Positions 25,543 to 64,000 of a stretch of DNA of 64,000 nucleotides are shown one piece after another. The stretch is from Syntrophomonadaceae bacterium (lineage in GTDB: Bacteria; Bacillota; Syntrophomonadia; Syntrophomonadales; Syntrophomonadaceae). Below the pieces are notes generated by a model that ran no database searches, had not been told where the DNA came from, and worked only from the letters and a program-made list of their open reading frames with translations. The stretch covers positions 12,870-76,869 of the forward strand of contig DASRMR010000020.1 of NCBI GenBank assembly GCA_035647815.1. Direction: 5' to 3'. Every line of letters starts with the position of its first letter. Position 1 is the stretch's first letter. The translations under genes and the position numbers were made by a program.

Positions 25543-25615
25543 AGGTCAGGCGCTCTACTCAACACCATTTATATTCCTCCTCCCTTCTTAATCCCCAGAA
25601 GTTAGTTTTATAAGT

Positions 25616-25788
25616 ATCTTACAGGCAGGTCTCCTGGCTTAAGTTCATCCTAGTCTCTGTACCTTCCCGGGCAAGCCCAGTGGTATAAAACAGATTTCGT
25701 CCCTATTACAGTAGGGGGTACTGCAGCGGATTTTACCGCTTTCCCTATTAAAGCAGGGCCTAATAATACGCCTTGCTACCAGTAAGAT
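25616..25788 (-). promoter_or_regulatory. Cobalamin (B12) riboswitch aptamer
   Basis: The minus strand reads ATCTTAC...TTAATAGGGAAAGCGGTAAAATCCGCTGCAGTACCCCCTACTGTAA...CCACTGGGCTTGCCCGGGAAGG...AGCCAGGAGACCTGCCTGTAAGAT. This gives the conserved core, the B12 box (AGCCAGGAGACCTGCC) and a closing P1 (ATCTTAC/GTAAGAT). Confidence 0.9.
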
Positions 25789-25979
25789 ATTTAATTATCC
25801 TAATAATACTAGGACAACTATTAAATGTCTATGTTTATAGGTGATTTGAGGATATTGCGGATAAAATTAAGATTAAACAGATTGGTGTAATTAAATAGCT
25901 TTTAATAGCTGACCGTGTTCCTTTATAAATGAAGGTATGGAAGAGGCTTTTGTATAATTAGTAAGAGTAGGTAAAAGGG

Positions 25980-40545: not shown

Positions 40546-40573
40546 AATGAGAATAATATTTCAAAATGAGAAT
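40546..40573 (+). promoter_or_regulatory. Direct repeat AATGAGAAT x2 (candidate enhancer/UAS for the 40649 sigma-54 promoter)
   Basis: AATGAGAAT at 40546-40554 and 40565-40573, 19 bp apart and 76-103 bp upstream of the -24 element. It shares the TGAGA core with the TCTCAA/TTGAGA palindromes at 56522 and 62058. Confidence 0.35.
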
Positions 40574-40648: not shown

Positions 40649-40664
40649 TGGCATATTATTTGCA
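40649..40664 (+). promoter_or_regulatory. Sigma-54 -24/-12 promoter (TGGCATATTATTTGCA)
   Basis: GG and GC are spaced as in the consensus TGGCAC-N5-TTGCA. It lies 104 nt upstream of the RHH/ABC operon start. Confidence 0.7.
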
Positions 40665-40680
40665 TGACTAGTAATAAGGA

Positions 40681-40748
40681 GGTAAGACAAATCTGGTTTG
40701 TTCTGTCTCAAAATCTCAACAATACTTAAGTTCAGTGGTAAGACAAAT
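40681..40748 (+). repeat. 12-nt direct repeat GGTAAGACAAAT x2 in the 5' leader of the RHH/ABC operon
   Basis: Identical copies at 40681-40692 and 40737-40748, between the sigma-54 promoter and the ATG at 40768. Confidence 0.6.
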
Positions 40749-40767
40749 AGGATAGGGGGTTGTAATA

Positions 40768-41073
40768 ATGCTCAGATCAGTAACGGTGAAATTGCATCAG
40801 GATTTGTTTAGGCAAATCAGGGTGATTGCAGAAAAAAAAGGAGAAACGATTTCTGATACGATTAGATATTTGTTGAAACGAGGGCTTGAGGAAAGGATCT
40901 ATGAAGAAAACACAGAATTGATTGCTAGTTTCATCCGGCGGGAGATGGATCATGCAATTCGATCCTATGCTATTTATCCCAGCCTCGATAATGTTGAACA
41001 CCCGAATAATAGCGCATTTACAGAAAGGTTGATCTTAGTTAGGTCTAATAAAGATGAAAATCTACCGAGCTAG
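40768..41073 (+). CDS. Ribbon-helix-helix (CopG/Arc-like) protein
   Basis: N-terminal RSVTVKLHQDLFRQIRVIAEKKGETISDTIRYLLKRGL fits the beta-strand/helix/helix RHH pattern. 101 aa. Confidence 0.55.
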   Translation: MLRSVTVKLHQDLFRQIRVIAEKKGETISDTIRYLLKRGLEERIYEENTELIASFIRREMDHAIRSYAIYPSLDNVEHPNNSAFTERLILVRSNKDENLPS

Positions 41074-49813: not shown

Positions 49814-50087
49814 TAAAAAATGCGGCGGGTAAGGTAACTAGTGGATTTTTAGTAGGAATTGAAAAGACACTAGCAATATTGCAGATGCAATTGCTTGGCT
49901 AAATATCGCTGAATCTTGTTAAACTTTTATCAAACAGTTATAATGATGTTAATATGTTTAAATATATGATAATCGAAAACATTTAACATTTCATCCCCTT
50001 CTTCTCTTTGTTTTTGAGTAAGATTAAACAGAAACATTGCATTTAACTTATTTTTTGTAATCCATCCGCTAATTGGGAGGAATTTAT

Positions 50088-52121
50088 TTGAATACTAGTA
50101 ACATGATTCATACGCCCTTAAGTTTGGAATTTAATAACGAAATTAAAAAACTAAAAAAGACCTATTATTACAACAACAAGGATTTTTCATCCTTAAATTC
50201 GTTACCTAGCCAAATAACCGCTTCGTGGAACAATTCTCGAAAGAACGGTATTGATCCTTTTTCTAATTTTACGGATATAGCTTATGAAAAAGTAGAAATG
50301 GATAAGATATCCGATGAAAGTAAAATCCTGTTAAAGGCAGCTACACCACTTATCGAAAAAATTGTTAGTCACTTATTTCCTATAAATGGTTTATGCTTGG
50401 CAGACAAAAATGGACTTGTTCTATTAGTTAAAGAGGCAGCGCGAAGTCCAATAAAGAAAAATGCATTTTCAGAAGGTATTGTTCTAAGTGAAGAAAATAT
50501 TGGCACTATCTCACAGAACTTGTGCATTAAATATCAAAAACCGGTGCAATTATTTGGTGCCGCTAATTATCATTCCTTTTTGGAAGATGATCTTAGTATG
50601 TCTACTCCAATTTTCAATACAAACAATGAATTAATAGGAGCATTGACATTAAATATAGTCACAAAAGAAGAAATCGAAGATGCGTATCTTGAAAGAACAT
50701 ATACTTATTTAATGGGATGGGCTAAATCTCTTGCTCATGCAATTCAATCCCAAGTAATGTTAATAAACAAAAATCAATCATTTACCATTACTAATGAAGC
50801 CTTTGAAACGGTTATATCGGCTGTTGATAAAGGAATTTTAGCTATTGATTGCAATGGAAATATAAAACATGTAAATAAAGAAAGCGAAAGGATTCTAGGA
50901 GATAGTAAAGAATCTATAATAAAAAATAATATTTCCGAATATATAGATAATACTCGCATTTTAGATAGGATAATTAACCAAAAAAAGACTATAGAAAGCA
51001 TGGAGAATATAAAAGGGAAGAACAAACCGAAATTAAAATATTTTATAAAGATTTCGCCAATTCTTGATCAAAACCAAAATGTAGAAGGGGCCGTTTTGAC
51101 CATACCTTTGGTATCAGAAAACAGCACTACAATTAATAAGCAGACAGGGAATACAGCGATCTACGATTTTGAAAAAATAATTGGTAACAGTGATTCCTTA
51201 ACTAAGACTATAAACATTGCTAAAAAGTTTGCCTATACAAATAATAATGTATTGATTGTAGGTGAAAGTGGGACTGGCAAAGAACTTTTTGCACAGTCTA
51301 TACACAATCAAAGCAGGGCAAGAAGGCCCTTTATAGCAATAAATTGCGCTTCAGTTTCCCATAGCCTAATTGAAAGTGAACTATTTGGATATGAAGGTGG
51401 CACATTTACAGGTGCGGATAAAAAGGGAAGGAAGGGGAAAATTGAATTAGCTAATGGGGGCACCCTTTTCTTAGATGAAATTGGTGATATGCCATTGGAA
51501 ATACAGCCTATTTTACTACGAGTGCTTGAAGATAAAAAAATAATGCGCCTAGGAGGAAATAGATATATTCCTGTAGATTTTAGGCTTGTAACTGCGACTA
51601 ATAAAGACTTATTGCAAGCCGTTAGGGATAAAGAATTTCGAGAAGATTTATATTATCGAATAGCAACTTTTAAAGTCATAATCCCTCCTTTAAGAAAAAG
51701 AGAAGGAGATATCGAATTGTTAGCAAAGTATTTTATTGAAGAAGCATGTCAAGAAATGGAAAGATCAATACCTGTTTTAAGTAAAGAAACACTTGATTAT
51801 TTGAACAATCATTATTGGAGTGGCAATGTAAGGCAACTTCAAAATGTTATAATCTATGCAGTTAGTATGTTGAATCCAGCTGAAACATTAATAGGGATTA
51901 ACCATTTACCTAGTGATATGTTTCTTAATAATAATACCCCGCATGAAGATTTTAATAATATAAGTTCTGTAACAACTTTGCGGGATTTAGAAAAAGAAGC
52001 TATTGAAAACGCCTTGGCAATTTGTGATTTCAATGTTGAGGACGCAGCTATACAGCTTGGAATAAGTAGAGCTACATTGTATAGGCGAATAAAAGAATAC
52101 AATATTGTTTTAAAAAAATAA
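50088..52121 (+). CDS. Sigma-54-dependent transcriptional activator (sensory N-terminal domain + PAS + AAA+ + Fis-type HTH)
   Basis: Walker A GESGTGKE, ESELFGYEGGTFTGA (GAFTGA-type sigma-54 contact loop), GGTLFLDEIGDM, RLVTATN and C-terminal AAIQLGISRATLYRRIKEY. GGGAGG RBS lies 7 nt before TTG 50088, with ATG 50103 as an alternative. Confidence 0.93.
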   Translation: MNTSNMIHTPLSLEFNNEIKKLKKTYYYNNKDFSSLNSLPSQITASWNNSRKNGIDPFSNFTDIAYEKVEMDKISDESKILLKAATPLIEKIVSHLFPINGLCLADKNGLVLLVKEAARSPIKKNAFSEGIVLSEENIGTISQNLCIKYQKPVQLFGAANYHSFLEDDLSMSTPIFNTNNELIGALTLNIVTKEEIEDAYLERTYTYLMGWAKSLAHAIQSQVMLINKNQSFTITNEAFETVISAVDKGILAIDCNGNIKHVNKESERILGDSKESIIKNNISEYIDNTRILDRIINQKKTIESMENIKGKNKPKLKYFIKISPILDQNQNVEGAVLTIPLVSENSTTINKQTGNTAIYDFEKIIGNSDSLTKTINIAKKFAYTNNNVLIVGESGTGKELFAQSIHNQSRARRPFIAINCASVSHSLIESELFGYEGGTFTGADKKGRKGKIELANGGTLFLDEIGDMPLEIQPILLRVLEDKKIMRLGGNRYIPVDFRLVTATNKDLLQAVRDKEFREDLYYRIATFKVIIPPLRKREGDIELLAKYFIEEACQEMERSIPVLSKETLDYLNNHYWSGNVRQLQNVIIYAVSMLNPAETLIGINHLPSDMFLNNNTPHEDFNNISSVTTLRDLEKEAIENALAICDFNVEDAAIQLGISRATLYRRIKEYNIVLKK

Positions 52122-52189: not shown

Positions 52190-53578
52190 TTACAAACCAA
52201 CAATAGGCATCATGAAAGAAACCCAGAATGTTAGTAGCAAAATAAACACAATTGTAGGTACTAAACCTGTTTTGAAAACATCCCCCATAGTGTAATGGCC
52301 AGGACTATAAGTTATCATTAAAACAGGGTTTAAAGGTAAGAGATAGCAAACACCAACACCCATAGAAACGATTAGAGTAATAGCGACAGGTGAAAATAGA
52401 CCAGTAGACATTCCAACTGCTGCTAATGGTGGTATTAGAAGTCCTACTAAAGCAGGTCCCATTGGGAATACTGCATGAAGAAGAACTACAAATGTTGTTA
52501 CAATTAATAGGACGACCAGACCAGATAAGCCAGATACACTAGCAACTAATCCCTCTGCCATCCAACTAGCTCCGCCAGTTGCTAAAACTCCGCCTGCAAC
52601 TGACATAATACATCCGATTACTAGAAGTACGCTCCATGGCACTCCTTTATTATAATCATCCCAAGTCATTAAATCTATACCGGGAACGAAAAACAGGATT
52701 AACCCTAGCAAAGCAACCATGGTGGAATTGATTTGCGGGAACCATGCCCCAGCAAACCATAAAACTAACAAAAGACCAATAATAGAAACTAATTTAATTT
52801 CTTGGACACTGAAGGGGCCTGCGGCCGCTACTTCTTTTTCTAAAACAGCAAGTGCCTCTTTATTAACTGGTTCTGGTTTAAAAACTTTGACAATAAAGAA
52901 CCACTCAACAAATACCATTACTAGTGCAATAGGATATGCAATTACAGTCCATTGAAGAAAGGAAATAGAAAGTCCAGCAACATCTGACAATACTTGCATG
53001 CCCATCACATTGATTGCTGTACCAATTGGTGTAGCAATACCACCTGTCATAACTGCAAGTGGAATACCTAACATAAGTGCTTTTACTAAATTAGATTCCC
53101 TTGGTTTTGCACCCATTGCTGCGACTAAGGTAAAAGCAATTCCTAAAAACAACATAGTTGTGGTAGTGTTTTGCATTATTGATGATACTAAACAACCAGC
53201 AAGCATGAAGCCGAGAACTAATTTTTCAGAGTTATCACCCGCCCAGTTTAAAAGAACACCTGTAATTCGGGCTCCTAAATTTGTATTCATCATAGCTATT
53301 GTTAAAGAGAAAGCGCCGAGGATAAAAAGCAAAACTGGTGACATAAATCCTGCAACTGCTTCGGGAAATGTTATTACATCCAATATAGGCATTAATAATA
53401 AAAGTATAAACCCAGTTATAGCAGTAGGAAAAGATTCAAATAACCAAAGGGAAACTCCACTAAATAATACTGCTAGTCCCATTTTCCCTGCAGTTGATAA
53501 TCCTTCGGGATCGGGAAGAAAATAAGCTGTTACTAATATTAAGGCTGCTATTACTATGCCGGTGATTCTTTTTGTCAT
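52190..53578 (-). CDS. DASS/SLC13-type anion (di/tricarboxylate-like) transporter, paralog 1
   Basis: 462-aa polytopic protein, alignable along its full length by eye with the 56666..58054 product (both 462 aa and both ending in a shared ...VGL / ...LGL C-terminus). Confidence 0.8.
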   Translation of the reverse strand: MTKRITGIVIAALILVTAYFLPDPEGLSTAGKMGLAVLFSGVSLWLFESFPTAITGFILLLLMPILDVITFPEAVAGFMSPVLLFILGAFSLTIAMMNTNLGARITGVLLNWAGDNSEKLVLGFMLAGCLVSSIMQNTTTTMLFLGIAFTLVAAMGAKPRESNLVKALMLGIPLAVMTGGIATPIGTAINVMGMQVLSDVAGLSISFLQWTVIAYPIALVMVFVEWFFIVKVFKPEPVNKEALAVLEKEVAAAGPFSVQEIKLVSIIGLLLVLWFAGAWFPQINSTMVALLGLILFFVPGIDLMTWDDYNKGVPWSVLLVIGCIMSVAGGVLATGGASWMAEGLVASVSGLSGLVVLLIVTTFVVLLHAVFPMGPALVGLLIPPLAAVGMSTGLFSPVAITLIVSMGVGVCYLLPLNPVLMITYSPGHYTMGDVFKTGLVPTIVFILLLTFWVSFMMPIVGL

Positions 53579-53736
53579 TAGCTGTCACTACCTTTCGTTT
53601 AATATAAAATAAGAATTATTTTTATAATCATTGCACTTAAATAACATTGTAATTTTAATTTAAGGTGAATATTTTTTGTGAGGCTGTCCAGAGTTTTTCC
53701 GAACAACCTCACATATTCATATGTTTTTTATAAATT

Positions 53737-54066
53737 TTAACGAAGAGTAAATAATAACATTTTATCATCAGTTAGTTTTTTCTTTAATTCTTCTATAGGG
53801 CCAATTTCTATAACTCCAGTTTGACAATGTTGGACGCAACTAGGCAACTTCCCCTTTTCCACTCGTTCAGTGCAACGAGTGCAATAGTCTGTAGGCGATA
53901 CAAAATAATCGAATTGCCATTTTTCGCCGACGGGGAAGGGCCCAATTTTTCTTACTTCTAGCCCGCATGTTTCAGGATCATAGTTGTTTTCTTGTTGGCA
54001 AGCTATTTCACAAGCATGGCAACCAGTACAGAATTTATAGTTTACAAATAAACCATATTGAGCCAC
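53737..54066 (-). CDS. Small 4Fe-4S ferredoxin-type subunit of the molybdopterin oxidoreductase
   Basis: 109 aa with CTGCHACEIAC and CTRC...CVQHC motifs. Starts 3 nt after the stop of the catalytic subunit gene. Confidence 0.75.
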   Translation of the reverse strand: MAQYGLFVNYKFCTGCHACEIACQQENNYDPETCGLEVRKIGPFPVGEKWQFDYFVSPTDYCTRCTERVEKGKLPSCVQHCQTGVIEIGPIEELKKKLTDDKMLLFTLR

Positions 54067-54068
54067 TA

Positions 54069-56279
54069 TTATTCTCCTCCTTCCACTTTATAAATTTTAC
54101 AAAGCGATGCTTTATACGAGTTACCAAAACCTGTGCTGCCTGGATTGTCACCTATGAGATTATTTATATTAGATTCAAAAACACCGTGAAAGCCATCTAA
54201 TGCATCTTTTTCTGGGAACCACCAACCATGGGCGGAGCTCACTACATCACGGCGGATGCCATTAGTTAATTTAGCTTTTTGTTTACATTTTCCTAAATGA
54301 TTTTCAATCCAAATCCAATCGCCATCTTTGATGCCATGCTCTTTGGCTACATCCGTGTGTATCTCGGTAATAGGATCAGAGTGAACTCTTCTAAGAGATG
54401 GAACGTTTCTATGTTCAGAGTGGAATAATCCAGGAACACGGGTGCCTGTAGTTAAAACTAGAGGATATTTTTCGTACAATTCTGGTGTACTTACTGGACT
54501 TTCTGGGGGTTCTTTATAAAACGGTAGTGGATCAACACCATACATTTCCAGTACACTAGTTGTAAATTCAAATAAACCTGAAGCAGTGTCAAATCCGGGT
54601 TCTCCATCTGGTCTTAGTAAGCCTTTTTCATGTCTGTTATATTCGAAATCTGTATACTTCCAATTTTGATTTTTAAGATCGTGGTAATCAATTCCTTGTT
54701 CAGCAGTTAGCGATTCGTACATTTCGACATCAGTTTCCCACGGATAAGCTTCTTTATTAAATCTGCGACCTAAATCTATGAGAATTTGTTGGTCGGATTT
54801 AGTATCTCCAACAGGATCAACTGCTTGAGTCAATGGCCCTAGGAAATAAGGTTGATGTCCAACTAGACCATGCCTTTCTCCAAAGGTGCTGGCTGGTAAT
54901 ACTATGTCACCTACTGCTACAGCAGTTGGACTCATGAAAAGATCAACTATGACATTTAGTTCTGTATTAGATAAGGCTTTGTATACTTTATCTGCGTCAG
55001 CACCCATACAGGCTATCGGATTATTAGTTTGCATGAAAACGCCTTTAATAGGATGAGGTTCACCGGTAAGCATAGCGTTAGTAATGGCTGTTGGTTCAGA
55101 CATGGCAGTGAGACCTAAGAATACAGGATTGCCTAAGCGTGTTGCTTTTTGCTCATCACTTAATAAATCAAATCCCCAACCAGATCTCCAAGTTTGTGTA
55201 ATTCCAAATGGATATTTACCAATGACTTGGGTTCCAGGTTTTTCAATATCACCCGTTAAACCAAATAAATTACGAACTGCAATAGATGCATGTAAACCCT
55301 CTTGGATTTGGTCAAATGGTAGTCCGGAATGAATACATGCTCTTTCAGCATTGGCATAAGCTCTGGCAACAGCTATGATGTCATCTGCATCAACGCCACA
55401 AATTTCAGCTACTTTTTCTACTGGGTATTCTTTACAACGCTCAGCATAATCTTCGAAACCGTAACCCCATTTGTCCACAAATTCTTTGTCATAAAGACCT
55501 TCTTGAATAATTATGTTTGCTAAACCTAGTGCTAGGGCAGCGTCTGTTCCAGGTCTAATTTGTAAAAAGTGCTCTGATCTTCCAGCCCACCATGTTACAC
55601 GTGGGTCAATAGTTATTACCTTTGTACCTCTTTTCATTACTTCTACAATCCAATATCCTAAGTTGCCATCAGGGTTGGAATTTTCCGGATTAGTACCCCA
55701 AATAATCATATATTCCGGAACTTTATAGTTTGGATTATCAAAACGATCTGGGAAAAACTGAGAACTATCTACAACGGTAGGATTACCAACTCCTAGAGCT
55801 AATGCTAATTGACGTGGAGCATAGCAAGCCATTCCAGATAAAAACCCGCAAGTATAGTTACCAGAACCTAAAGCAAATGGTAAACGGCAGGTATATCCGT
55901 TTACATCTCTACCAGTTCCTTGGAAGAAGGCTAATGCTTTTGGCCCATATTCATCCATAATTTTGCGCCATTTTTCTTCAATGAAATCATATGCTTCGTC
56001 CCAGCTAATTGGTTTCCACTTGTTTTCTCCCCGCTCTCCTACACGCAACATAGGCGATTTTAGACGTTCTGGGTTATATAAAACCTCTTTGTATGCGAGA
56101 CAGCGCGAACATAATCTTCCCTGGTTATAGGGATTGTCTGGGTCGCCTTCAATTTTTTCTAGTTTCCCGTCTTTTAGATACATCAAAACGCCACAATTAT
56201 TGTGGCAACCTGGCCCTGTCCGAGCATGGCTGCGGATTATTGTGTAGCCATCTTCTTCCCATGTCCATGGTTTTGCCAT
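54069..56279 (-). CDS. Cytoplasmic molybdopterin (bis-MGD) oxidoreductase catalytic subunit, DMSO-reductase superfamily
   Basis: 736 aa. N-terminal Cys-rich segment GPGCHNNCGVLMYLKDGKLEKIEGDPDNP...GRLCSRC, followed by typical MopB and C-terminal MGD-binding barrel segments (GDWIWIEN...). No twin-arginine signal. Confidence 0.85.
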   Translation of the reverse strand: MAKPWTWEEDGYTIIRSHARTGPGCHNNCGVLMYLKDGKLEKIEGDPDNPYNQGRLCSRCLAYKEVLYNPERLKSPMLRVGERGENKWKPISWDEAYDFIEEKWRKIMDEYGPKALAFFQGTGRDVNGYTCRLPFALGSGNYTCGFLSGMACYAPRQLALALGVGNPTVVDSSQFFPDRFDNPNYKVPEYMIIWGTNPENSNPDGNLGYWIVEVMKRGTKVITIDPRVTWWAGRSEHFLQIRPGTDAALALGLANIIIQEGLYDKEFVDKWGYGFEDYAERCKEYPVEKVAEICGVDADDIIAVARAYANAERACIHSGLPFDQIQEGLHASIAVRNLFGLTGDIEKPGTQVIGKYPFGITQTWRSGWGFDLLSDEQKATRLGNPVFLGLTAMSEPTAITNAMLTGEPHPIKGVFMQTNNPIACMGADADKVYKALSNTELNVIVDLFMSPTAVAVGDIVLPASTFGERHGLVGHQPYFLGPLTQAVDPVGDTKSDQQILIDLGRRFNKEAYPWETDVEMYESLTAEQGIDYHDLKNQNWKYTDFEYNRHEKGLLRPDGEPGFDTASGLFEFTTSVLEMYGVDPLPFYKEPPESPVSTPELYEKYPLVLTTGTRVPGLFHSEHRNVPSLRRVHSDPITEIHTDVAKEHGIKDGDWIWIENHLGKCKQKAKLTNGIRRDVVSSAHGWWFPEKDALDGFHGVFESNINNLIGDNPGSTGFGNSYKASLCKIYKVEGGE

Positions 56280-56453: not shown

Positions 56454-56469
56454 TGCATAATTCATGCCA
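56454..56469 (-). promoter_or_regulatory. Sigma-54 -24/-12 promoter (minus strand TGGCATGAATTATGCA)
   Basis: Correct GG-N10-GC spacing. It lies 175 nt upstream of the 56279 start codon. Confidence 0.7.
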
Positions 56470-56521
56470 ACGATAAAAGTCTTTAAAGCTGAGTTTTTCA
56501 CCTTTTTCCTATCCCTTTAGT

Positions 56522-56545
56522 TCTCAATTAGAGATTAACTTGAGA
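56522..56545. promoter_or_regulatory. Candidate enhancer (UAS) palindrome TCTCAA-N12-TTGAGA
   Basis: TCTCAATTAGAGATTAACTTGAGA lies 53 bp upstream of the 56454 sigma-54 promoter. A site with the same arms and spacing occurs at 62058..62081. Confidence 0.55.
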
Positions 56546-56594
56546 TTTGATAATATTTTTACGCTAGTTTGAATTTAATTACACTTATGCTAAA

Positions 56595-56637
56595 TAAAAA
56601 AGCCCGAATCTAGTAAACTTAGATTTGGGCTTTTTTG
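56595..56637 (-). terminator. Terminator after DASS transporter paralog 2 (bidirectional form)
   Basis: AAAAAAGCCCGAATCTA-loop-TAGATTTGGGCTTTTTT. Confidence 0.8.
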
Positions 56638-56665
56638 GTAACCTTTTGGATAATGGCTTATTTTG

Positions 56666-58054
56666 CTATAATCCTAGTACAGATACTATAAATGGGAGCC
56701 AGAAGACCATTAAAAGAATATAAGTAAAAGTAATAAATACCCCTGGTTTTATTACATCACTCATAGAATAATAGCCGTCGTTGTATGTTATTAGTATATT
56801 GGGATTAAGTGGTAGTAAATAACATGCCTCAAATGCTAAAGCTACCATGATAGCAGCCACTGCAGGTGAGAACATGCCTGTTTGCAAACCAATATCTGCC
56901 ATTGGTATTAAAAACAAACCTACTCCGGCAGGACCTATGGGGAAAACTGAATGTAACAAAACTAAAAATGTAGCTAAAACAGCTAACACCCCAAAAGTTC
57001 CTAATCCACCTGTAATAGACAAGACTGAATCGGTAAGAAATCTAGCTGCACCAGTTTCTAAAGCAACGGCAGCAAATGCCTGAATACTACCAATCATCAG
57101 TACTATATTCCAAGGAACTGCCGCAAAAAACTCATTGCCTTCTAAAAGATTTACTCCCGGTAAAAACATAATTATTAGGCCAACCATGGCAACTGTAGTT
57201 GTATTTAATACCGGAATCCAAGAACCGAGAACCCAACAAATTAACATGGCCGTAACGAGGGTTAGTACTTTTTTCTCTCTAAATGTTAATTTGCCTAAGT
57301 TGGCGATTTGTGTTTCTAATTCGACTAAAGCGTCACTAGCAATATCTTCAGGTTTTAGGATTTTAGTGACAAAAAACCAAGCAGTGAGAACCATTATAAT
57401 GGAAATAGGTATTCCTATTACCATCCAATCTAAAAAACTGATAGTCATACCATAGTGTTGACCTAAAAGGTCAATTGCCATCATGTTTAAAGCTGATCCA
57501 GCTGGTGTAGACGCGCCGCCTGCCATTGCACCTAAAGGAACACCCAACATTAAACATTTACCTAAATTTGACTCTCCAGGTTTTGCATTTAATGGTTTTA
57601 GTAAGGAATAAACAATTCCAAGAAATAGGAAAGTTGCAGCCATATCGGACATAACTGCGGATAAGAGCGCTGTTCCTCCCATAAATGCTAAAACGATTTT
57701 ATTAGAAACTCCACCTGCCCATTTTAATAATATTCCAGCAAGTCTAGTAGCTAGTTCCGTTTTCATTATAATTGCAGTAATTCCAAAAGTAGCAATAACA
57801 AAGAAAATAACAGGACTTATAAAAGATTGGAAAACGCTATTTAAATCTTTTATTCCAAAAAAACTAATCAATAGCATCAATAAGAAACCAGTAATTGATA
57901 CCGGGAATGTTTCGGAAACCCATAAAACAACAGCGGCTAGCAATAGCCCTAAAGACATTTTCCCAGCATATCCAAGAGCTTCAGGGGCAGGCATGAAATA
58001 AGTTGCTATAATAATCACAATCGCTAAAACAAAACCAATATTTTTTTTGTTCAT
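56666..58054 (-). CDS. DASS/SLC13-type anion transporter, paralog 2
   Basis: 462-aa polytopic protein, colinear with the 52190..53578 product. Confidence 0.8.
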   Translation of the reverse strand: MNKKNIGFVLAIVIIIATYFMPAPEALGYAGKMSLGLLLAAVVLWVSETFPVSITGFLLMLLISFFGIKDLNSVFQSFISPVIFFVIATFGITAIIMKTELATRLAGILLKWAGGVSNKIVLAFMGGTALLSAVMSDMAATFLFLGIVYSLLKPLNAKPGESNLGKCLMLGVPLGAMAGGASTPAGSALNMMAIDLLGQHYGMTISFLDWMVIGIPISIIMVLTAWFFVTKILKPEDIASDALVELETQIANLGKLTFREKKVLTLVTAMLICWVLGSWIPVLNTTTVAMVGLIIMFLPGVNLLEGNEFFAAVPWNIVLMIGSIQAFAAVALETGAARFLTDSVLSITGGLGTFGVLAVLATFLVLLHSVFPIGPAGVGLFLIPMADIGLQTGMFSPAVAAIMVALAFEACYLLPLNPNILITYNDGYYSMSDVIKPGVFITFTYILLMVFWLPFIVSVLGL

Positions 58055-58177
58055 TTATACGTTTCTCCCTTTTGCATTTTTATCAATATAAATTTGCAGG
58101 TGTCGGGAAATGTTCGAACAAATCCTGGCACTGTATAAACAATTTTTGTGTATGGGATAAATACTTCACCTAGTAAA

Positions 58178-58217
58178 TATTCCTTTTCCCGGTAGTTGTG
58201 ATTCGGGAAAAGGAATA
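58178..58217 (-). other. 14-bp perfect intercistronic hairpin between the Fe-S subunit and transporter genes
   Basis: TATTCCTTTTCCCG-N12-CGGGAAAAGGAATA. On the minus strand only a weak U-tract (TTTAC) follows. Confidence 0.6.
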
Positions 58218-58225
58218 AAGTTCCT

Positions 58226-59032
58226 TTAAATCTTCTCTAGAGGAACATCTTCTAATTTAATACTATCTTCTACTTTTATATTTTTCTCTTCATATGTTTT
58301 GTAGCCAGCTTTTTCTATTTTGATATTATAATTACCGGAAGGTAATTTTCTTAACCAAAAGTCACCGAAACAGTCGGTTCCCGTTTCCAATGTTTGATTG
58401 GTTTTGTTGCAAGTTAAAGAAACTAGTGCCTCCTCGATACACTCATCTTCTATAGGATCGAAGACTTCACCGGCGACAAAATTATGGAAACGATTGAGAT
58501 AATATACCCTCGGACTTAAGCCAAGTTCAGGTTGCATAACTTCTGCTTGGGCAATTAAATCTGCAAAGTCTTCTTCTTCGCCAAATTGTAATGCTCCAGT
58601 AGCACATGCATCAACACAGCGTGGAATACCACCTTCGTCTAACAAGTGAGCGCACCCGGTACATTTTTGGGGCAATTGTAAAAATTCGTTCCAATATATT
58701 TTGTTATATGGGCAAGTATCTACAATTTCTTTTTTGTTTTGAGCTTTTGTTGGGTCTATAATAACTAAACCGTCATCTCTTTTATAAACCGCTCCATCTT
58801 CAGTTATGCAAGGTGCATTATCGCAATGCATGCATGGAGTAGGGGTGTACTCAATTTTAACTTTCGGAGTCTGCCCATGGATTTTTTCATGAATTTTCAT
58901 CCAAAATTGTCCTGTATCTGGTTGGGGTTTGGCATAACTACCCCAGTCGTTATCAACATGCTCATCTTTACAGGCAATTTGACAATTATAGCAACCGTTA
59001 CATTTCGCAATGTCAACCACAAATACTTTCAT
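58226..59032 (-). CDS. Fe-S (multi-[4Fe-4S]) beta subunit with C-terminal carboxypeptidase-regulatory-like beta-sandwich domain (BthL-like)
   Basis: CNGCYNCQIAC, CMHCDNAPC and CTGCAHL...CVDAC motifs. The C-terminal ~70 aa (GDFWLRKLPSGNYNIKIEKAGYKTYEEKNIKV) look like a CarboxypepD_reg-type fold. Confidence 0.8.
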   Translation of the reverse strand: MKVFVVDIAKCNGCYNCQIACKDEHVDNDWGSYAKPQPDTGQFWMKIHEKIHGQTPKVKIEYTPTPCMHCDNAPCITEDGAVYKRDDGLVIIDPTKAQNKKEIVDTCPYNKIYWNEFLQLPQKCTGCAHLLDEGGIPRCVDACATGALQFGEEEDFADLIAQAEVMQPELGLSPRVYYLNRFHNFVAGEVFDPIEDECIEEALVSLTCNKTNQTLETGTDCFGDFWLRKLPSGNYNIKIEKAGYKTYEEKNIKVEDSIKLEDVPLEKI

Positions 59033-59035
59033 TGA

Positions 59036-61621
59036 TTAGACCTCCTTTTCTAGACAAGCTTCAAATGCTACACCTGAATCTTTGTCATATTGTTTTGCAA
59101 ATGCATCTGGATATTCTGTTCTAAGTTTTTTCATATCCGCTTTAGCAATGTTAACTAAAAACCCACTAGTTACTTCACCGGCACAATTTTGCGAGGTAGT
59201 ATTGCCGGGACAGATTAGGTTATTGGCCCCTCCACGATCTATTTTGCCTGCATCAATTGAATCTAACCTTGCACCATGATCTTGGTATACTACTCCAGGC
59301 TTGATTCGTTCAGTAACATAAGCACCGCCTAAAACGATACCCCTATCATTATAAACTTCTACTATATCACCTTGTTTAATATTTTCTTTTATAGCATCGA
59401 TGGGGTTGATCCATACAGGTTCGTATAAGTATCCATCTTTGCCCTCAACTTTACATGTTGGAATTTCTCTTAACCAAGAAATGTCGTCTAAGTTAGCATG
59501 AACACGCCATCTAGGATGGTTAGATACTATTAAATAAGGAAACTCTTCAGATCTGGAATGCAACATACTTTCCTGATGAGTTTTCCCGTAAGGAATAAAC
59601 TTAGGAACTGGCCCTCTTTCATCGTCATCCGGGAATTGTTCTTTTATATTAGTGGAGCTAAATTCTAGTTTACCTGTTGGTGTGCTAAGAGGAAATTGCT
59701 CTGGATCTTCATAAAAAGGAAAAAACCCTGGCGGATCATTTTCCCAATCTTCAGCAACTGGTATTACGATATATTCCTTATCACGAAATTCTTCATAGGA
59801 ATCAACATAATGAGCAACACCTGATTCTTCAAAACCGATTTTAATACAATCTTCAACAGTTTTTCCTTGGGTATATTCTTCGTAAAGGCCTAATTTTTTC
59901 GCAACTTCTGCAACAGCTTCCCAGTCGCTCTTGGATTCACCATATGGCTCAATGCATTGCCCTTCATGGTATAAAAGGTTATATTGTCCGCTCATGGTGT
60001 CGATTGCAATATCTTCGGTTTCAAACTTAGTATTGACTGGTAATATAATGTCTGCAAAATGACAATCATTTTCCATCCAAATGTGTTGCACGAGGAAAAA
60101 CTCAATGCTTTTATGGCGGATAGCTTCTATAAATCTATTTCCACCATTCCAGCAAGTAGTCCAACAAGGGGTGTCACTCCATATCATGCGAATAGGAGTT
60201 CCACCATCATCAATTGGGTATTTGTACTCAATAAATTGGTCTTCTGCAGGGTAGCCGGCCCTAGTATGTCCATACCAGGTAATTGGTTCTTCTGCGACAA
60301 TTGCGTCCGGAATTAGAGTTTTGGGGATAAACTGTCTTGTGTTTGGGGTAAACCCTAAAGTTCCGTTATAACATCCTTTAGTACTAGGGATTATCTCAGT
60401 ACGTGGCCCAGGGTTTTGGGAGTGTAAATTATATAGATTCCATTCGATCATCTTCATTTGGTTGCGCCCTGGTTTTCCTAACGCTTGCATGCCTAAAAGA
60501 CATATTTCTAGTCTGGCAGGTTCTGAGGCATAAGTTGAACGGATAAAAGAACCACCATTACCATGAGCTATAGTGACATCCTCTTTAGCCCATTTTCTTG
60601 CTAAAGCCTTGATAGTTCTAGATGGCACTCCACAAATAGGGGCAGCCCACTTAGGCGTTTTAGGGATTCCATCTTCTTCTCCCATAACATAGGCTTTAAA
60701 TTCTTCAAAGCCATGTGAATGGGTTTTAATATATTCTTTGTCATAAGTATCTTCAAGAATCCAAGTATAAGCAATCGCTAATTGTAGTGCTGAATCAGTA
60801 TTTGGGTATACAGGAATCCACTTATCGGCATGAACTGCTGCAGCATAGTTTAAGTCGGGGCAAATATAAATCATATCAATACCCAAATCTTTAAACCAAT
60901 AAGTTAAACGGCTAGCTTGCTGGCCACTCCATCCCCAGGGGGTAGTTTCTTGGTCACAACCCCAAAATAAAATGGTGTCAGTATTTTCGGAGACATCTTT
61001 CCATAGGTTTGTTTGCTCGCCTTGGCCAACAGGGTCTTGCCCCCAAATATGTTTCCCTCCCCAATACCATCCTTCCCAGCTATCGGCATTACGCGCTTGC
61101 ATAGTAGCAGATCCCAGTAGATCTAAAAGAGGAGCTTGGCATCCGTGCCCACCATGTACGGATTTTGTTTCTCCATGTCCGTCTGCTTGAGCCAAAATTG
61201 ATAAAGAGCTGTATTCTTCACAGACTCGATTGATTTCTTTTGCAATTAAATCAGTGGCTTCATCCCAAGATATACGAACATACTTACTAATTCCTCTGTT
61301 TTGGGGATTTCTTTCCCCTTCGGGATCCCAGTCTACCCTTTTTAGGGGATATGGGATTCTGTTAGGTGAAAACGCGCGTTTTTTATAAACAATACTAAAT
61401 GGTGGTGGAAACGATTTCATTCCGGGGTCAAATTCTTTACCCTTAGCTTTTAAAGTCCAAGGACGAAATCTTTCTGCTGGATAATTTTTGTCGTAGCGGA
61501 AAGGGCGCGTACGAATTATTTTGCCATCTTTCACATCAACTTCACAAGTATTGGAACCCATAGCAAAACCGCAAAAACCCAACCCTTTGATAACGGTTTT
61601 CTCCTTATTGTTGTTTGACAT
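59036..61621 (-). CDS. Molybdopterin oxidoreductase large subunit, pyrogallol-hydroxytransferase (AthL)-like architecture
   Basis: 861 aa with no N-terminal CxxCxxxC Fe-S motif and no Tat signal. Typical MopB core and C-terminal barrel (GDIVEVYNDRG). It is paired with a ~270-aa Fe-S beta subunit. Confidence 0.8.
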   Translation of the reverse strand: MSNNNKEKTVIKGLGFCGFAMGSNTCEVDVKDGKIIRTRPFRYDKNYPAERFRPWTLKAKGKEFDPGMKSFPPPFSIVYKKRAFSPNRIPYPLKRVDWDPEGERNPQNRGISKYVRISWDEATDLIAKEINRVCEEYSSLSILAQADGHGETKSVHGGHGCQAPLLDLLGSATMQARNADSWEGWYWGGKHIWGQDPVGQGEQTNLWKDVSENTDTILFWGCDQETTPWGWSGQQASRLTYWFKDLGIDMIYICPDLNYAAAVHADKWIPVYPNTDSALQLAIAYTWILEDTYDKEYIKTHSHGFEEFKAYVMGEEDGIPKTPKWAAPICGVPSRTIKALARKWAKEDVTIAHGNGGSFIRSTYASEPARLEICLLGMQALGKPGRNQMKMIEWNLYNLHSQNPGPRTEIIPSTKGCYNGTLGFTPNTRQFIPKTLIPDAIVAEEPITWYGHTRAGYPAEDQFIEYKYPIDDGGTPIRMIWSDTPCWTTCWNGGNRFIEAIRHKSIEFFLVQHIWMENDCHFADIILPVNTKFETEDIAIDTMSGQYNLLYHEGQCIEPYGESKSDWEAVAEVAKKLGLYEEYTQGKTVEDCIKIGFEESGVAHYVDSYEEFRDKEYIVIPVAEDWENDPPGFFPFYEDPEQFPLSTPTGKLEFSSTNIKEQFPDDDERGPVPKFIPYGKTHQESMLHSRSEEFPYLIVSNHPRWRVHANLDDISWLREIPTCKVEGKDGYLYEPVWINPIDAIKENIKQGDIVEVYNDRGIVLGGAYVTERIKPGVVYQDHGARLDSIDAGKIDRGGANNLICPGNTTSQNCAGEVTSGFLVNIAKADMKKLRTEYPDAFAKQYDKDSGVAFEACLEKEV

Positions 61622-61749
61622 TTAGAGACCTCCTTTATTTTAAAAAAAGACAACTTTTAAGTGCATGTAGATTTAATATAGTGCTTGTATTCACATACAC
61701 AAATTTTATTGAGAAGGGGCACAAAAATGCACCTCCTTAACAAAAAAAA

Positions 61750-61905
61750 CTAGTCTTTTTTTTCTTCCGGCGTTTCTTTTGGGGCTGCCCCCGGGGCTGA
61801 CAGGTCTGTTTTACAGTGAATGCAAACCTTATTTATAGCTGGATTAAACTTGTTACAATTAGGACATTTAATTGGTTTTTGTACACTAGGTGGTCTAAAG
61901 CACAT
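61750..61905 (-). CDS. 51-aa zinc-ribbon micro-protein (first ORF of the sigma-54 operon)
   Basis: Not in the ORF track. AAGGAGGG RBS lies 7 nt before ATG 61905. MCFRPPSVQKPIKCPNCNKFNPAINKVCIHCKTDLSAPGAAPKETPEEKKD has CPxC...CxxC. Confidence 0.55.
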   Translation of the reverse strand: MCFRPPSVQKPIKCPNCNKFNPAINKVCIHCKTDLSAPGAAPKETPEEKKD

Positions 61906-61957
61906 ATGCATACCCTCCTTAATTTTTTATTATTTTGTTGATACAGTATTTATATAA

Positions 61958-61973
61958 TGCATAAAACATGCCA
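61958..61973 (-). promoter_or_regulatory. Sigma-54 -24/-12 promoter (minus strand TGGCATGTTTTATGCA)
   Basis: Correct spacing. It lies 53 nt upstream of the zinc-ribbon ORF start and is divergent from the 62131 promoter. Confidence 0.7.
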
Positions 61974-62057
61974 ACCCTAATTTTAAAAAAGAAATACGGA
62001 CAAATCGCGATTACCAGACTTCAGTTAGAAAAAAGATACATGAAATAATTTATCAAA

Positions 62058-62081
62058 TCTCAAAAGAATCTCCATTTGAGA
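62058..62081. promoter_or_regulatory. Candidate shared enhancer (UAS) palindrome TCTCAA-N12-TTGAGA
   Basis: TCTCAAAAGAATCTCCATTTGAGA lies between two divergent sigma-54 promoters, 85 bp from one and 50 bp from the other. A site with identical arms and spacing occurs at 56522. Confidence 0.55.
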
Positions 62082-62130
62082 AAAAACGAAAATTGATTTT
62101 TGAATTTCCGGTTTGTCTATTAAAATTAAA

Positions 62131-62146
62131 TGGCACATTTTTTGCA
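62131..62146 (+). promoter_or_regulatory. Sigma-54 -24/-12 promoter (TGGCACATTTTTTGCA)
   Basis: Near-perfect consensus, 94 nt upstream of the GNAT ATG. Confidence 0.75.
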
Positions 62147-62239: not shown

Positions 62240-62707
62240 ATGATTGAAGTTTGCTTTGCTGGAAAAAAAGATTTAGATACGCTTCAAGACATTTTATGGG
62301 AAAATGAAATGGGGCTAGCAGGCGATATCGAAGAACATGTTGTTCTTAAAAAAAATGAAAAAATAGTTGCCGGGGCAAAAATTGCTTATTTAGGCGATGA
62401 TTTCTTTCACTTAGAAGTGATAGGAGTAAAAAACGAATTACAGGGAAAGGGATATGGGAAGATCTTAATTGAAAAAATAATTCACAATCCCTGGTACTAT
62501 AGCCTTTACGAATCTCAAAAGGAAAATCATTTTAAGATAACTACTGTATCAAAGGGAACGAAAAAGGGTTTTTATCAACAACGCGGATTTATGCCTTGTG
62601 ATTTTACCGAACTTTTATATCCTTATAATGAACAATGTTGTGAATGTCCAGAAATGGCTGAATGTAATCCAGTTCCAATGATTCTTAAATGGGATTCGAA
62701 AGAATGA
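62240..62707 (+). CDS. GNAT-family N-acetyltransferase with Cys-rich C-terminal tail
   Basis: Acetyl-CoA loop ELQGKGYGKILIEKII (Q/R-x-x-G-x-G/A). The C-terminus carries CDF...EQCCECPEMAEC. Confidence 0.7.
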   Translation: MIEVCFAGKKDLDTLQDILWENEMGLAGDIEEHVVLKKNEKIVAGAKIAYLGDDFFHLEVIGVKNELQGKGYGKILIEKIIHNPWYYSLYESQKENHFKITTVSKGTKKGFYQQRGFMPCDFTELLYPYNEQCCECPEMAECNPVPMILKWDSKE

Positions 62708-63046: not shown

Positions 63047-63062
63047 TGGCATGCTTTTTGCA
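63047..63062 (+). promoter_or_regulatory. Sigma-54 -24/-12 promoter (TGGCATGCTTTTTGCA)
   Basis: Near-perfect consensus, 56 nt upstream of TTG 63118. Confidence 0.75.
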
Positions 63063-63117
63063 TTTAATTTACTTGATGCTAGGTTTTTTGAAAAAGTTTA
63101 GAAAGGAGTTGACGAAA

Positions 63118-64000
63118 TTGCATTTACCAAAAGGGCTATTTTCCAAGACTTTGGAAGAAGCTTGTCAAGATATTACAACTAAATGTCTGGACTGTGAAAA
63201 GTGTTTAGTAAATTGCTTTCTAATTAATGAAATTAATGAACGGCCTAGAGAGATTGCTGAAAGAAAACCAACAGTTGACGAAGCATTTTCCTGCGCTCTT
63301 TGCGGATTATGTGCCACCATGTGTACAGCATCCTTAAATATAGGTGAGATGTTTAATTTAAAAAGGGTCGAAGCTATTAAAATAGGTCAAATAGATGCTG
63401 ACGACTATTGCTATATTTTCCCGGATAGACCGGAAACGGTTATGAGCACTTTTAGGGACTACTATAAAGTTGACTATTCGAAAATGAATAAAGATATTCC
63501 ATCAGAAACAGCGTTTCTGCCAGGTTGCACATTGATGACATATTCTCCTAATTTAACAAAAGAAATATACGAGACACTAGCCAAAGATAATAACAATCCC
63601 TTGTTTTTTGAAGATTGTTGTGGCTTGACTATGTATCATATAGGGCTTCCTGAAAGGGGAGATAAAATTAAAGAAAGCTTAAGGGAAAAGGCGCGGATAT
63701 TAGGAGTAAAAAAGATTATTACAGCTTGCCCTAATTGCTATTACCAACTAAAAGACGAAGCTGCATTCAAAGACATACAGATTTTGACTGTATATGAAGC
63801 ACTAAAAGACCATTTTGTTCAAGCAGATGGCCAAGAAACATATGCGGTTCATGATACTTGCCCGGACCGATTCGAAGGAATTTTTGGTAAACATGTTAGA
63901 GAAAACCTCGATCTTATGGGATATAAAAGAGTAGAATTGAAAAATTGCGGTAAAAATGCTGTTTGTTGTGGGAGTAGTGGACAATTAGGACATTTTAGAC
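63118..64000 (+). CDS. Fe-S / CCG-domain oxidoreductase, paralog of 47254..48387 (partial, runs off the window end)
   Basis: Not in the ORF track because there is no stop within the window. GAAAGGAG RBS precedes TTG 63118. The translation LDCEKCLVNC...FSCALCGLCATMC...FLPGCTLMTYSPNL...EDCCGLT...ACPNCYYQL...VHDTCPDRFEGIFG...VCCGSSGQLGHFR is colinear with the 47254 product. Confidence 0.85.
   Translation, partial: MHLPKGLFSKTLEEACQDITTKCLDCEKCLVNCFLINEINERPREIAERKPTVDEAFSCALCGLCATMCTASLNIGEMFNLKRVEAIKIGQIDADDYCYIFPDRPETVMSTFRDYYKVDYSKMNKDIPSETAFLPGCTLMTYSPNLTKEIYETLAKDNNNPLFFEDCCGLTMYHIGLPERGDKIKESLREKARILGVKKIITACPNCYYQLKDEAAFKDIQILTVYEALKDHFVQADGQETYAVHDTCPDRFEGIFGKHVRENLDLMGYKRVELKNCGKNAVCCGSSGQLGHFR

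What the first reader, a model, noticed from the sequence alone, without database searches (positions are those of the whole stretch)
56522..62081. Shared upstream palindrome TCTCAA-N12-TTGAGA at both molybdoenzyme operons
TCTCAATTAGAGATTAACTTGAGA (56522-56545) lies 53 bp upstream of the 56454 promoter. TCTCAAAAGAATCTCCATTTGAGA (62058-62081) lies between the divergent 61958 and 62131 promoters. The two sites have identical 6-bp arms and identical 12-bp spacing. That is the expected geometry for an EBP enhancer, and it links both molybdoenzyme modules and the GNAT gene to one activator.

I did not find the exact palindrome upstream of the 40649, 47072 or 63047 promoters. The 40649 promoter has direct AATGAGAAT repeats that share the TGAGA core, and a half-matching site (TCTCAAAAGGAAAATCATTTTAAGA) lies inside the GNAT gene near 62513. 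Either there is a second activator or the site is degenerate.
Basis: seen in the sequence. Interest (0 to 1): 0.7.

Follow-up and report, generated by a model that had tools for sequence, protein, structure and literature searches.

The report
Conserved sigma-54 enhancer site, two copies
The two matching palindromes are real and belong to a 33-base regulatory element, also found in two related uncultured bacteria, that is most likely the docking site of the neighbouring sigma-54 activator protein; this is an ordinary kind of gene switch, not described before for these molybdenum-enzyme operons.

Summary
TCTCAA-N12-TTGAGA occurs exactly twice in 64 kb (56522-56545 and 62058-62081); no shuffle produced a match.

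The palindrome is only part of a longer, oriented 33-bp element: TTMTCAAWTCTCAA-N3/4-ATCTCYANTTGAGAA. It holds three direct TCTCAA-like hexamers and one inverted. Copies lie at 56521-56553 and 62050-62082.

The same element lies between the divergent sigma-54 promoters of the orthologous operons in two related uncultured lineages (L083/L084 and L087). Their proteins are 53-75% identical to those of the window. Of the 33 positions, 26 are invariant, while the rest of the intergenic DNA does not align. In those relatives the arm spacing is 11, not 12.

In all four cases the element centre is about 91-98 bp upstream of the start site inferred for one sigma-54 promoter. The only regulator gene that keeps its position in all three lineages is the PAS/AAA+/HTH_8 activator (50073-52121). 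Its recognition helix, RATLYRRIK, is rare among its homologues.

Best reading: an upstream activator sequence for that activator, serving operon A, operon B and the GNAT gene. Binding is inferred, not shown.

The near-match at 62513 is at chance level. The AATGAGAAT repeats at the 40649 promoter share the TGAGAA core, but no link to this activator is established.

This is a new member of a known kind, of modest interest.

The parts
56521..56553 (-). Composite element, copy 1. Read on the - strand towards promoter A it is TTATCAAATCTCAAGTTAATCTCTAATTGAGAA. It contains the reported palindrome 56522-56545.
   Evidence: Its centre is 69.5 bp from the GG of the 56454 promoter, about -94 from the inferred start site.
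62050..62082 (+). Composite element, copy 2: TTATCAAATCTCAAAAGAATCTCCATTTGAGAA. It contains the reported palindrome 62058-62081.
   Evidence: Its centre is about -91 from the GNAT promoter start site and about -119 from the operon B promoter start site (both inferred).
56454..56469 (-). Sigma-54 promoter of operon A (TGGCATGAATTATGCA).
   Evidence: No sigma-70-like promoter in the region.
61958..61973 (-). Sigma-54 promoter of operon B (TGGCATGTTTTATGCA).
62131..62146 (+). Sigma-54 promoter of the GNAT gene (TGGCACATTTTTTGCA). In sequence it resembles the operon A promoter of the relatives (TGGCACATTATTTGCA).
50073..52121 (+). Enhancer-binding protein with PAS, a sigma-54 AAA+ domain and a Fis-type HTH_8 domain. 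It is the proposed binder. The public gene call gives 672 aa, that is a start about 30 bp downstream of the ORF start.
   Evidence: It is the only EBP in the 72.7 kb examined. Its recognition helix is SRATLYRRIK.
52190..56279 (-). Operon A: acetylene-hydratase-like Mo/W bis-MGD enzyme (54069-56279), small ferredoxin (53737-54066) and DASS transporter (52190-53578).
56666..61911 (-). Operon B: 53-aa zinc-ribbon ORF (61750-61911), pyrogallol-hydroxytransferase-like large subunit (59036-61621), small subunit (58226-59032) and DASS transporter (56666-58054).
62240..62707 (+). GNAT acetyltransferase gene behind the 62131 promoter. No homologue was found in the loci of the relatives.
40546..40573 (+). 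Possible related site, membership uncertain: two direct AATGAGAAT repeats 19 bp apart, 76-103 bp upstream of the 40649 sigma-54 promoter. They share the TGAGAA core.
   Evidence: The same 11-mer AAAATGAGAAT forms a perfect inverted repeat upstream of the operon A promoter in L088.

Best explanation
The two palindromes are the most symmetric part of a 33-bp upstream activator sequence: TTMTCAAWTCTCAA-N3/4-ATCTCYANTTGAGAA. It is made of four TCTCAA-like hexamers, three direct and one inverted.

Inferred mechanism. [quoted passage not shown] It binds this element through its C-terminal domain and assembles into the active oligomer when its still unknown signal is present. By DNA looping it contacts sigma-54 RNA polymerase held at the -24/-12 promoters and uses ATP to open them.

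Copy 1 would drive operon A (acetylene-hydratase-like molybdoenzyme, ferredoxin, DASS transporter). Copy 2 lies between two divergent promoters and would drive operon B (pyrogallol-transhydroxylase-like enzyme, DASS transporter) and the GNAT gene.

In the relatives a single copy serves divergent A and B promoters. In the window's lineage a rearrangement separated the operons, and each kept a copy.

Shown: the element, its conservation, its position relative to the promoters, and the conserved position of the activator gene. Inferred: who binds it, how many subunits bind, and which of the promoters around copy 2 it activates.
For: 1. Non-random. There are 2 exact copies and none in 100 shuffles.

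2. Conservation. The element is conserved in L083/L084 (19279-19310) and L087 (19158-19189). These are the only close relatives among 5.8 billion proteins (EBP 53%, MoA 73%, alpha subunit 75% identical). In alignment A1 the only conserved islands are the -24/-12 boxes and this element, with 26 of 33 columns invariant. All variation falls in the spacers or in the weaker hexamer positions.

3. Chance is low. Either module appears in a shuffled intergenic region at about 1e-4.

4. Position. The element centre is 66.5-73 bp from the GG of the nearest sigma-54 promoter in all four cases, and 94.5-165 bp from the second promoter. It sits upstream of or between the promoters and is not in the RNA started at any of them. 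This fits published EBP sites, although the nearest-promoter distance is at or below the 100-250 bp reported for most Clostridiales sites (PMC6615313).

5. The activator gene is the only regulator gene that keeps its position in all three lineages. In each it is convergent with the 3' end of the transporter genes.

6. The helix variant LYRRIK occurs in only 4 of the 120 best EBP hits. Those four are exactly the loci with TGAGAA-type inverted repeats upstream of the molybdoenzyme promoters. More distant EBP homologues next to MoA homologues (Sporomusa, Geopsychrobacteraceae; 36-38% identical) have other helices and lack the element.

7. No sigma-70-like promoter overlaps either site, and the scan calls no terminator-like hairpin in either region.
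Against: - There is no binding or expression data.
- Only two to three independent lineages exist (the L083 and L087 activators are 77% identical), so the motif model rests on four sites.
- The arm spacing differs (12 against 11).
- Three direct hexamers plus one inverted is not the classical two-fold symmetric EBP site. The common TGT-N10-12-ACA arms are absent.
- The orientation of the element relative to its nearest promoter is opposite in the window and in the relatives.
- Other sigma-54 promoters of the same island (47072, 63047) have no copy, so a single activator does not explain the whole island.
Confidence: 0.75

Rival explanations
1. The element is a conserved site for a different DNA-binding protein. 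This could be a repressor or anti-activator that occludes the enhancer region, a small ribbon-helix-helix-like protein such as the 101-aa product of 40768-41073, or a nucleoid protein. The activator would then bind elsewhere.
For: Binding was not tested. Direct hexamer repeats are typical of ribbon-helix-helix and some response-regulator sites. The island encodes two paralogous 100-aa proteins with weak, sub-threshold ribbon-helix-helix matches. L083 and L087 carry a second conserved motif (GTAAGAGCAAC, twice each), so more than one regulator acts at these promoters.
Against: No other regulator gene keeps its position with the operons across the three lineages. No homologue of the 101-aa protein is in any related locus fetched. 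No other conserved block that could serve as the activator's site exists in the intergenic alignment. The fixed position 66.5-73 bp upstream of a sigma-54 -24 box is an activator position, not an operator position.
Confidence: 0.13
2. Copy 2 activates only one of its two flanking promoters. That would be the GNAT promoter, which has the same register and orientation as copy 1 has to promoter A. In that case operon B is not linked to operon A through this site in the window's organism.
For: Copy 2 is 50 bp from the GNAT promoter in the same orientation as copy 1 to promoter A (53 bp). It is 85 bp from promoter B in the opposite orientation.
Against: In both relatives the element lies 52-55 bp from the operon B promoter in exactly that 'opposite' orientation, and 117-148 bp from promoter A. 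So both orientations and both distances are in natural use. From my own knowledge, enhancer-type activation tolerates such changes, and sites shared between divergent sigma-54 promoters are known (zraP-zraSR, hyc-hyp in E. coli).
Confidence: 0.08
3. The match is a leftover of a recent duplication or rearrangement, a scar or recombination site with no regulatory function.
For: The window's gene order differs from that of the relatives, and the element sits at both junctions.
Against: The flanks of the two copies are unrelated and the copies differ only at spacer positions. The element is kept in lineages whose proteins are 25-47% diverged and whose other intergenic DNA does not align. No recombinase or transposase gene lies nearby.
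Confidence: 0.03

Closest known systems
Upstream activator sequences of Fis-type (HTH_8) enhancer-binding proteins in Clostridiales (Nie, Dong and Yang 2019, BMC Genomics 20:565, PMC6615313)
   Same: A repeated or dyad site upstream of a -24/-12 promoter. The activator gene lies next to its targets. The site is conserved among orthologous loci. [quoted passage not shown] Many operons have more than one site.
   Different: None of the 39 described groups regulates molybdopterin enzymes of these types. 15 of those groups use TGT-N10-12-ACA, which is absent here. Most of their sites lie 100-250 bp from the promoter, whereas here the nearest promoter is 50-55 bp from the edge of the element.
NifA (TGT-N10-ACA) and FhlA upstream activator sequences
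   Same: Inverted arms separated by about one helical turn or more, acting on sigma-54 promoters by looping (cited in PMC6615313).
   Different: The arm sequence is different (TCTCAA/TTGAGA). Two extra direct hexamers are present. The arm spacing varies (11 or 12) between lineages.
Shared enhancer between divergent sigma-54 promoters, for example ZraR sites in the E. coli zraP-zraSR intergenic region and FhlA sites between hyc and hyp (from my own knowledge, not checked here)
   Same: One activator-binding region placed between two divergently transcribed sigma-54 promoters, as in L083, L087 and copy 2 of the window.
   Different: Unrelated activators and unrelated site sequences. Here the single ancestral site was also duplicated when the operons were rearranged.

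Membership tests
Sigma-54 enhancer (UAS) bound by a bacterial enhancer-binding protein | Lies upstream (tens to a few hundred bp) of a -24/-12 sigma-54 promoter | tested here: met
   Element centres are 66.5-73 bp from the GG of the nearest promoter and 94.5-165 bp from the second, in the window, L083 and L087.
Sigma-54 enhancer (UAS) bound by a bacterial enhancer-binding protein | Repeated or dyad-symmetric sequence compatible with an oligomeric HTH protein | tested here: met
   Four TCTCAA-like hexamers, with perfect 6-7 bp inverted arms. Which hexamers pair is not resolved.
Sigma-54 enhancer (UAS) bound by a bacterial enhancer-binding protein | A cognate activator with an AAA+ sigma-54 interaction domain and a DNA-binding domain is encoded in the genome, usually nearby | tested here: met
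   50073-52121 matches Sigma54_activat at 2e-65 and HTH_8 at 7e-14. Its orthologue is adjacent in L083-L087.
Sigma-54 enhancer (UAS) bound by a bacterial enhancer-binding protein | Conserved upstream of orthologous target operons when other intergenic sequence has diverged | tested here: met
   26 of 33 columns are invariant in alignment A1 and the flanks do not align. The chance of each module per shuffled intergenic region is about 1e-4.
Sigma-54 enhancer (UAS) bound by a bacterial enhancer-binding protein | Bound by the activator and required for activation | not testable with these tools
   Needs EMSA or footprinting and reporter or knockout experiments.
TGT-N10-12-ACA class of EBP sites (NifA/FhlA-like; 15 Clostridiales groups) | TGT and ACA arms separated by 10-12 bp | tested here: not met
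   Neither copy contains TGT...ACA arms. The arms are TCTCAA/TTGAGA.
Intrinsic terminator or transcribed RNA hairpin | G+C-rich stem followed by a T run, inside a transcript | tested here: not met
   The scan calls no terminator-like site in either region. The arms are A+T-rich with an 11-12 nt loop. Copy 2 and the copies in the relatives lie between divergent promoters and are not part of the RNA started at them. No Rfam match.
Operator of a sigma-70 promoter | Overlaps or adjoins -35/-10 hexamers | tested here: not met
   No sigma-70-like promoter overlaps either element. The one match in the second region is the sigma-54 box itself.

The most novel reading that the evidence does not exclude
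The single activator at 50073-52121 recognises TGAGAA half-sites in several architectures: the 33-bp composite at the two molybdoenzyme operons, direct AATGAGAAT repeats at the 40649 promoter, and TCTCAAT/AATGAGAAA/TTTGAGAC sites at a further promoter 8 kb beyond the window. It would then be the master switch of a sigma-54-only catabolic island of at least 32 kb with at least four molybdopterin enzymes, probably for hydroxylated aromatic acids. A second layer would consist of small ribbon-helix-helix-like proteins and GGTAAGAC leader boxes.
Probability: 0.2. Interest if true: 0.5.

Novelty: new member of a known kind. Interest (0 to 1): 0.3.

Why it matters
It gives a concrete, testable binding site for an uncharacterised sigma-54 activator. 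That activator appears to control an acetylene-hydratase-like enzyme and a pyrogallol-transhydroxylase-like enzyme, each paired with a DASS carboxylate transporter, in uncultured anaerobic Firmicutes.

The site, together with the activator's sensor domain, could be used to find the inducing compound, and so the substrates of these enzymes. It could also be used to build a reporter.

It is also a clean example of one enhancer shared by divergent sigma-54 promoters that was duplicated when the operons were rearranged. The principle itself (activator, upstream site, sigma-54 promoter) is textbook.

Tried and rejected
1. Scan of 185,579 reference genomes with the operon A enzyme. The best hit is 53% identical and no close genome is present. 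None of the 80 loci has the palindrome. It was useful only in showing that EBP homologues sit next to this enzyme in Sporomusa and Geopsychrobacteraceae.

2. Strict 22-base pattern in JGI metagenomes: 0 hits. A relaxed 20-base pattern gave 27 hits, about 14 distinct, none near a sigma-54 promoter or homologous genes. That is chance level.

3. More copies in the window with up to 2 mismatches: none above chance. This rejects the site near 62513.

4. Loci of more distant activators.
- P0004 is not next to molybdoenzymes and was uninformative.
- P0033/L095 has TCTTC/GAAGA-type repeats 190-220 bp upstream of its promoter. The relation to TGAGAA is ambiguous and was not used.
- Sporomusa L011 has TAGAGA-N4-TAGAGA about 100 bp upstream of its promoter, but L010 does not. 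This is a hint only.

5. Enrichment of WTGAGAA near the other sigma-54 promoters. If only TTGAGAA is counted, one independent site remains, and by my own rough estimate that is not convincing. The broader count was defined after seeing the data, so it is not claimed.

6. Rfam scan: only an unrelated cobalamin riboswitch.

7. Literature search for sigma-54 control of pyrogallol transhydroxylase or catechol dehydroxylases: nothing found.
Full report
**1. Observation**

TCTCAATTAGAGATTAACTTGAGA lies at 56522-56545 and TCTCAAAAGAATCTCCATTTGAGA at 62058-62081. These are the only two matches to TCTCAA-N12-TTGAGA in the window, and no match occurred in 100 dinucleotide-preserving shuffles.

With up to two mismatches only one more match appears, against 4.7 expected. 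So no degenerate family is visible at that level.

The window has five exact matches to the sigma-54 consensus TGGCAY-N5-WTGCW against 0.25 expected: 40649(+), 56454(-), 61958(-), 62131(+) and 63047(+). One-mismatch candidates lie at 47072 and 49599.

**2. Genes around the sites**

- Activator: 50073-52121(+) encodes the only enhancer-binding protein (EBP) in the window. It has PAS, Sigma54_activat (2e-65) and HTH_8 domains.
- Operon A, on the - strand behind the 56454 promoter:
  - a 736-aa bis-MGD enzyme whose closest solved relative is acetylene hydratase (2e7z, 5e-84);
  - a 109-aa ferredoxin;
  - a DASS transporter.
- Operon B, on the - strand behind the 61958 promoter:
  - a 53-aa zinc-ribbon ORF;
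  - an 861-aa homologue of the pyrogallol hydroxytransferase large subunit (4v4c, 8e-137);
  - its Fer4_11/CarboxypepD_reg small subunit;
  - a second DASS transporter.
- GNAT gene: 62240-62707(+), behind the 62131 promoter.

**3. The element is longer than the palindrome, and oriented**

Written in promoter orientation, the two sites are:

- copy 1 (- strand, 56553 to 56521): TTATCAAATCTCAA GTTA ATCTCTA A TTGAGAA
- copy 2 (+ strand, 62050-62082): TTATCAAATCTCAA AAGA ATCTCCA T TTGAGAA

Each has four TCTCAA-like hexamers, three direct and one inverted. The DNA beyond these 33 bp is unrelated.

Copy 1 is 53 bp from promoter A. Copy 2 is 50 bp from the GNAT promoter in the same orientation, and 85 bp from promoter B.

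**4. Conservation**

The window matches Logan assemblies of runs SRR5678805, SRR5678807, SRR5678811 and SRR5678812. No reference genome is close: the best hit for the operon A enzyme is 53% identical, and none of the 80 loci fetched has the palindrome.

A search with the EBP among 5.8 billion proteins found only two close clusters. These are P0002 (53% identical) and P0003 (52%), which are 77% identical to each other. All other hits are 44% identical or less.

Their contigs (L083-L086 and L087) have the EBP gene convergent with an operon B orthologue. An operon A orthologue is transcribed divergently from operon B. Identities to the window's proteins are 73% for MoA, 75% for the alpha subunit, 67-70% for the beta subunit and 70-74% for the transporters.

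Exactly one copy of the element lies in that divergent intergenic region:

- L083 19279-19310: TTCTCAAATCTCAAGCGATCTCTACTTGAGAA
- L087 19158-19189: TTCTCAATTCTCAAGCAATCTCTACTTGAGAA

In the four-way alignment A1 the only conserved islands are the -24/-12 boxes and this element, with 26 of 33 columns invariant. The variable columns are the spacers, the second base of the first hexamer and the fifth base of the third hexamer.

A one-base indel falls between module M1 (TTMTCAAWTCTCAA) and module M2 (ATCTCYANTTGAGAA).

Each module alone turns up in 11-24 of 200,000 shuffles of those intergenic regions.

**5. Position**

Distances from the element centre to the GG of each promoter:

| Case | Nearest promoter | Second promoter |
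|---|---|---|
| Copy 1 | 69.5 bp (A) | none |
| Copy 2 | 66.5 bp (GNAT) | 94.5 bp (B) |
| L083 | 72 bp (B) | 165 bp (A) |
| L087 | 73 bp (B) | 133 bp (A) |

In every case, then, one promoter has the element centred about 91-98 bp upstream of its inferred start site. The orientation relative to that nearest promoter differs between the window and the relatives, as expected for an enhancer-type site.

No sigma-70-like promoter overlaps either site, and the scan calls no terminator-like hairpin in either region. There is no Rfam match there. Copy 2 and the copies in the relatives lie between divergent promoters, so they are not part of the RNA started at those promoters.

**6. Link to the activator (inferred)**

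- The EBP gene is the only regulator gene that keeps its position in all three lineages.
- Its recognition helix, S(R/K)ATLYRRIK, is nearly invariant among P0001-P0003, although the proteins are only 53% identical overall.
- Among the 120 best hits, LYRRIK occurs only in these three and in P0027.
- The P0027 locus (L088) is a fourth lineage (MoA 64%, alpha subunit 73%, EBP 41% identical) with two EBP genes. Its operon A promoter (TGGTAAGCATTTTGCA) is preceded, about 100 bp upstream, by a perfect inverted repeat AAAATGAGAAT-N19-ATTCTCATTTT. This has the same TGAGAA core in a different layout.
- EBP homologues at 36-38% identity next to MoA homologues in Sporomusa and Geopsychrobacteraceae have other helices and lack the element.

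This small covariation supports the activator as the binder but is not proof.

**7. The other promoters**

The AATGAGAAT repeats at 40546 and 40565 are real. The 11-mer AAAATGAGAAT is identical to the arm of the L088 repeat.

An extension of the contig (L092; window coordinate = L092 position + 52239) shows what lies beyond 64000:

- a CCG-domain protein;
- two more molybdopterin enzymes, with a ferredoxin and an NrfD-type subunit;
- a radical SAM protein;
- another sigma-54 promoter at about 72055.

The upstream region and leader of that promoter are paralogous to those of the 40649 promoter.

No second EBP gene lies in these 72.7 kb. The promoters at 47072 and 63047 have no TGAGA-type site. 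Whether the local activator also serves 40649 and 72055 is open. I do not regard the enrichment statistics as sound, because the looser motif was chosen after seeing those sites.

**8. Comparison with what is known**

The comparative reconstruction of Clostridiales sigma-54 regulons (PMC6615313) reports the following:

- EBP genes usually lie next to their targets.
- Many operons have more than one UAS.
- Most UAS lie 100-250 bp from the promoter.
- UAS similarity tracks DNA-binding-domain similarity.
- 15 of 39 groups use TGT-N10-12-ACA.

None of the 39 groups covers these molybdoenzyme operons or this motif. The element fits the kind, with a new sequence, an unusual layout of three direct hexamers plus one inverted, and a short distance to the nearest promoter.

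**9. Verdict**

- the unit is a 33-bp composite rather than 6-N12-6;
- the ancestral state was a single site shared by divergent promoters;
- the near-match at 62513 is noise.

Binding by the activator has not been demonstrated. This is a new member of a known kind. Its interest is modest and lies mainly in opening a route to the inducer and substrates of an uncharacterised molybdoenzyme island.

Noticed in passing
window 40649-41073 and L092 19640-20230 (window-equivalent about 71880-72470): Two paralogous sigma-54-driven leaders each precede a ~100-aa protein. The two proteins are 50% identical and have weak, sub-threshold ribbon-helix-helix matches. Each 5' leader carries two GGTAAGAC boxes (window 40681-40688 and 40737-40744; L092 19841-19848 and 19898-19905). 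Both share TTTCAAAATGAGAA about 80-100 bp upstream of the promoter.
   Followed up: partly
L083 19078-19088 and 19489-19499; L087 18960-18970 and 19336-19346: An 11-mer GTTGCTCTTAC (GTAAGAGCAAC on the other strand) occurs twice per locus. One copy is just downstream of the operon A promoter and one is in the operon B leader, both on the same DNA strand. It is absent from the window's two operons and resembles the GGTAAGACAA boxes above. It may be the site of a second regulator. Its function is unknown.
   Followed up: partly
window 61750-61911(-); L083 18834-18974; L087 18726-18866; L088 about 15047-15196; Sporomusa acidovorans L010 about 9604-9744 and L011 about 9602-9752: A small zinc-ribbon ORF (M(H)MCFRPP...KCP.C....NP....C..C) is conserved as the first gene after the sigma-54 promoter of these molybdoenzyme operons across Firmicutes lineages. 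It precedes either the transhydroxylase-like or the acetylene-hydratase-like enzyme gene.
   Followed up: partly
window 63047-64000 and L092 10808-19550 (window-equivalent 63047 to about 71790): Beyond the window's right end, the 63047 sigma-54 promoter is followed by a CCG-domain protein, a 746-aa molybdopterin enzyme, a Fer4_11 protein, an NrfD membrane subunit, a radical SAM protein and a 741-aa molybdopterin enzyme. The island therefore holds at least four bis-MGD enzymes. No TGAGA-type site precedes this promoter.
   Followed up: partly
window 62131-62146 compared with L083 19458-19473 and L087 19305-19320: The GNAT promoter (TGGCACATTTTTTGCAT) resembles the operon A promoter of the relatives (TGGCACATTATTTGCAT) more than the window's own operon A promoter does (TGGCATGAATTATGCAT). 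This suggests that the GNAT gene took over the ancestral A promoter when the operons were rearranged. No GNAT homologue was found in the related loci.
   Followed up: partly
window 56598-56637: AAAAAGCCCGAATCTAGTAAACTTAGATTTGGGCTTTTTT is an 11-bp-stem hairpin flanked by A and T runs, between the operon B transporter gene and copy 1 of the element. It looks like a bidirectional terminator separating operons B and A, although the simple terminator scan did not call it.
   Followed up: no
window 25607-25798 (-): Cobalamin riboswitch (Rfam RF00174, 108.8 bits), unrelated to the finding.
   Followed up: no
L104 about 1300-1500: This metagenome contig was hit by chance with the relaxed pattern. It carries an array of TGGCAy-N5-wTGCw-like motifs every ~41 bp on both strands. 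It is probably a repeat, not a set of promoters.
   Followed up: no
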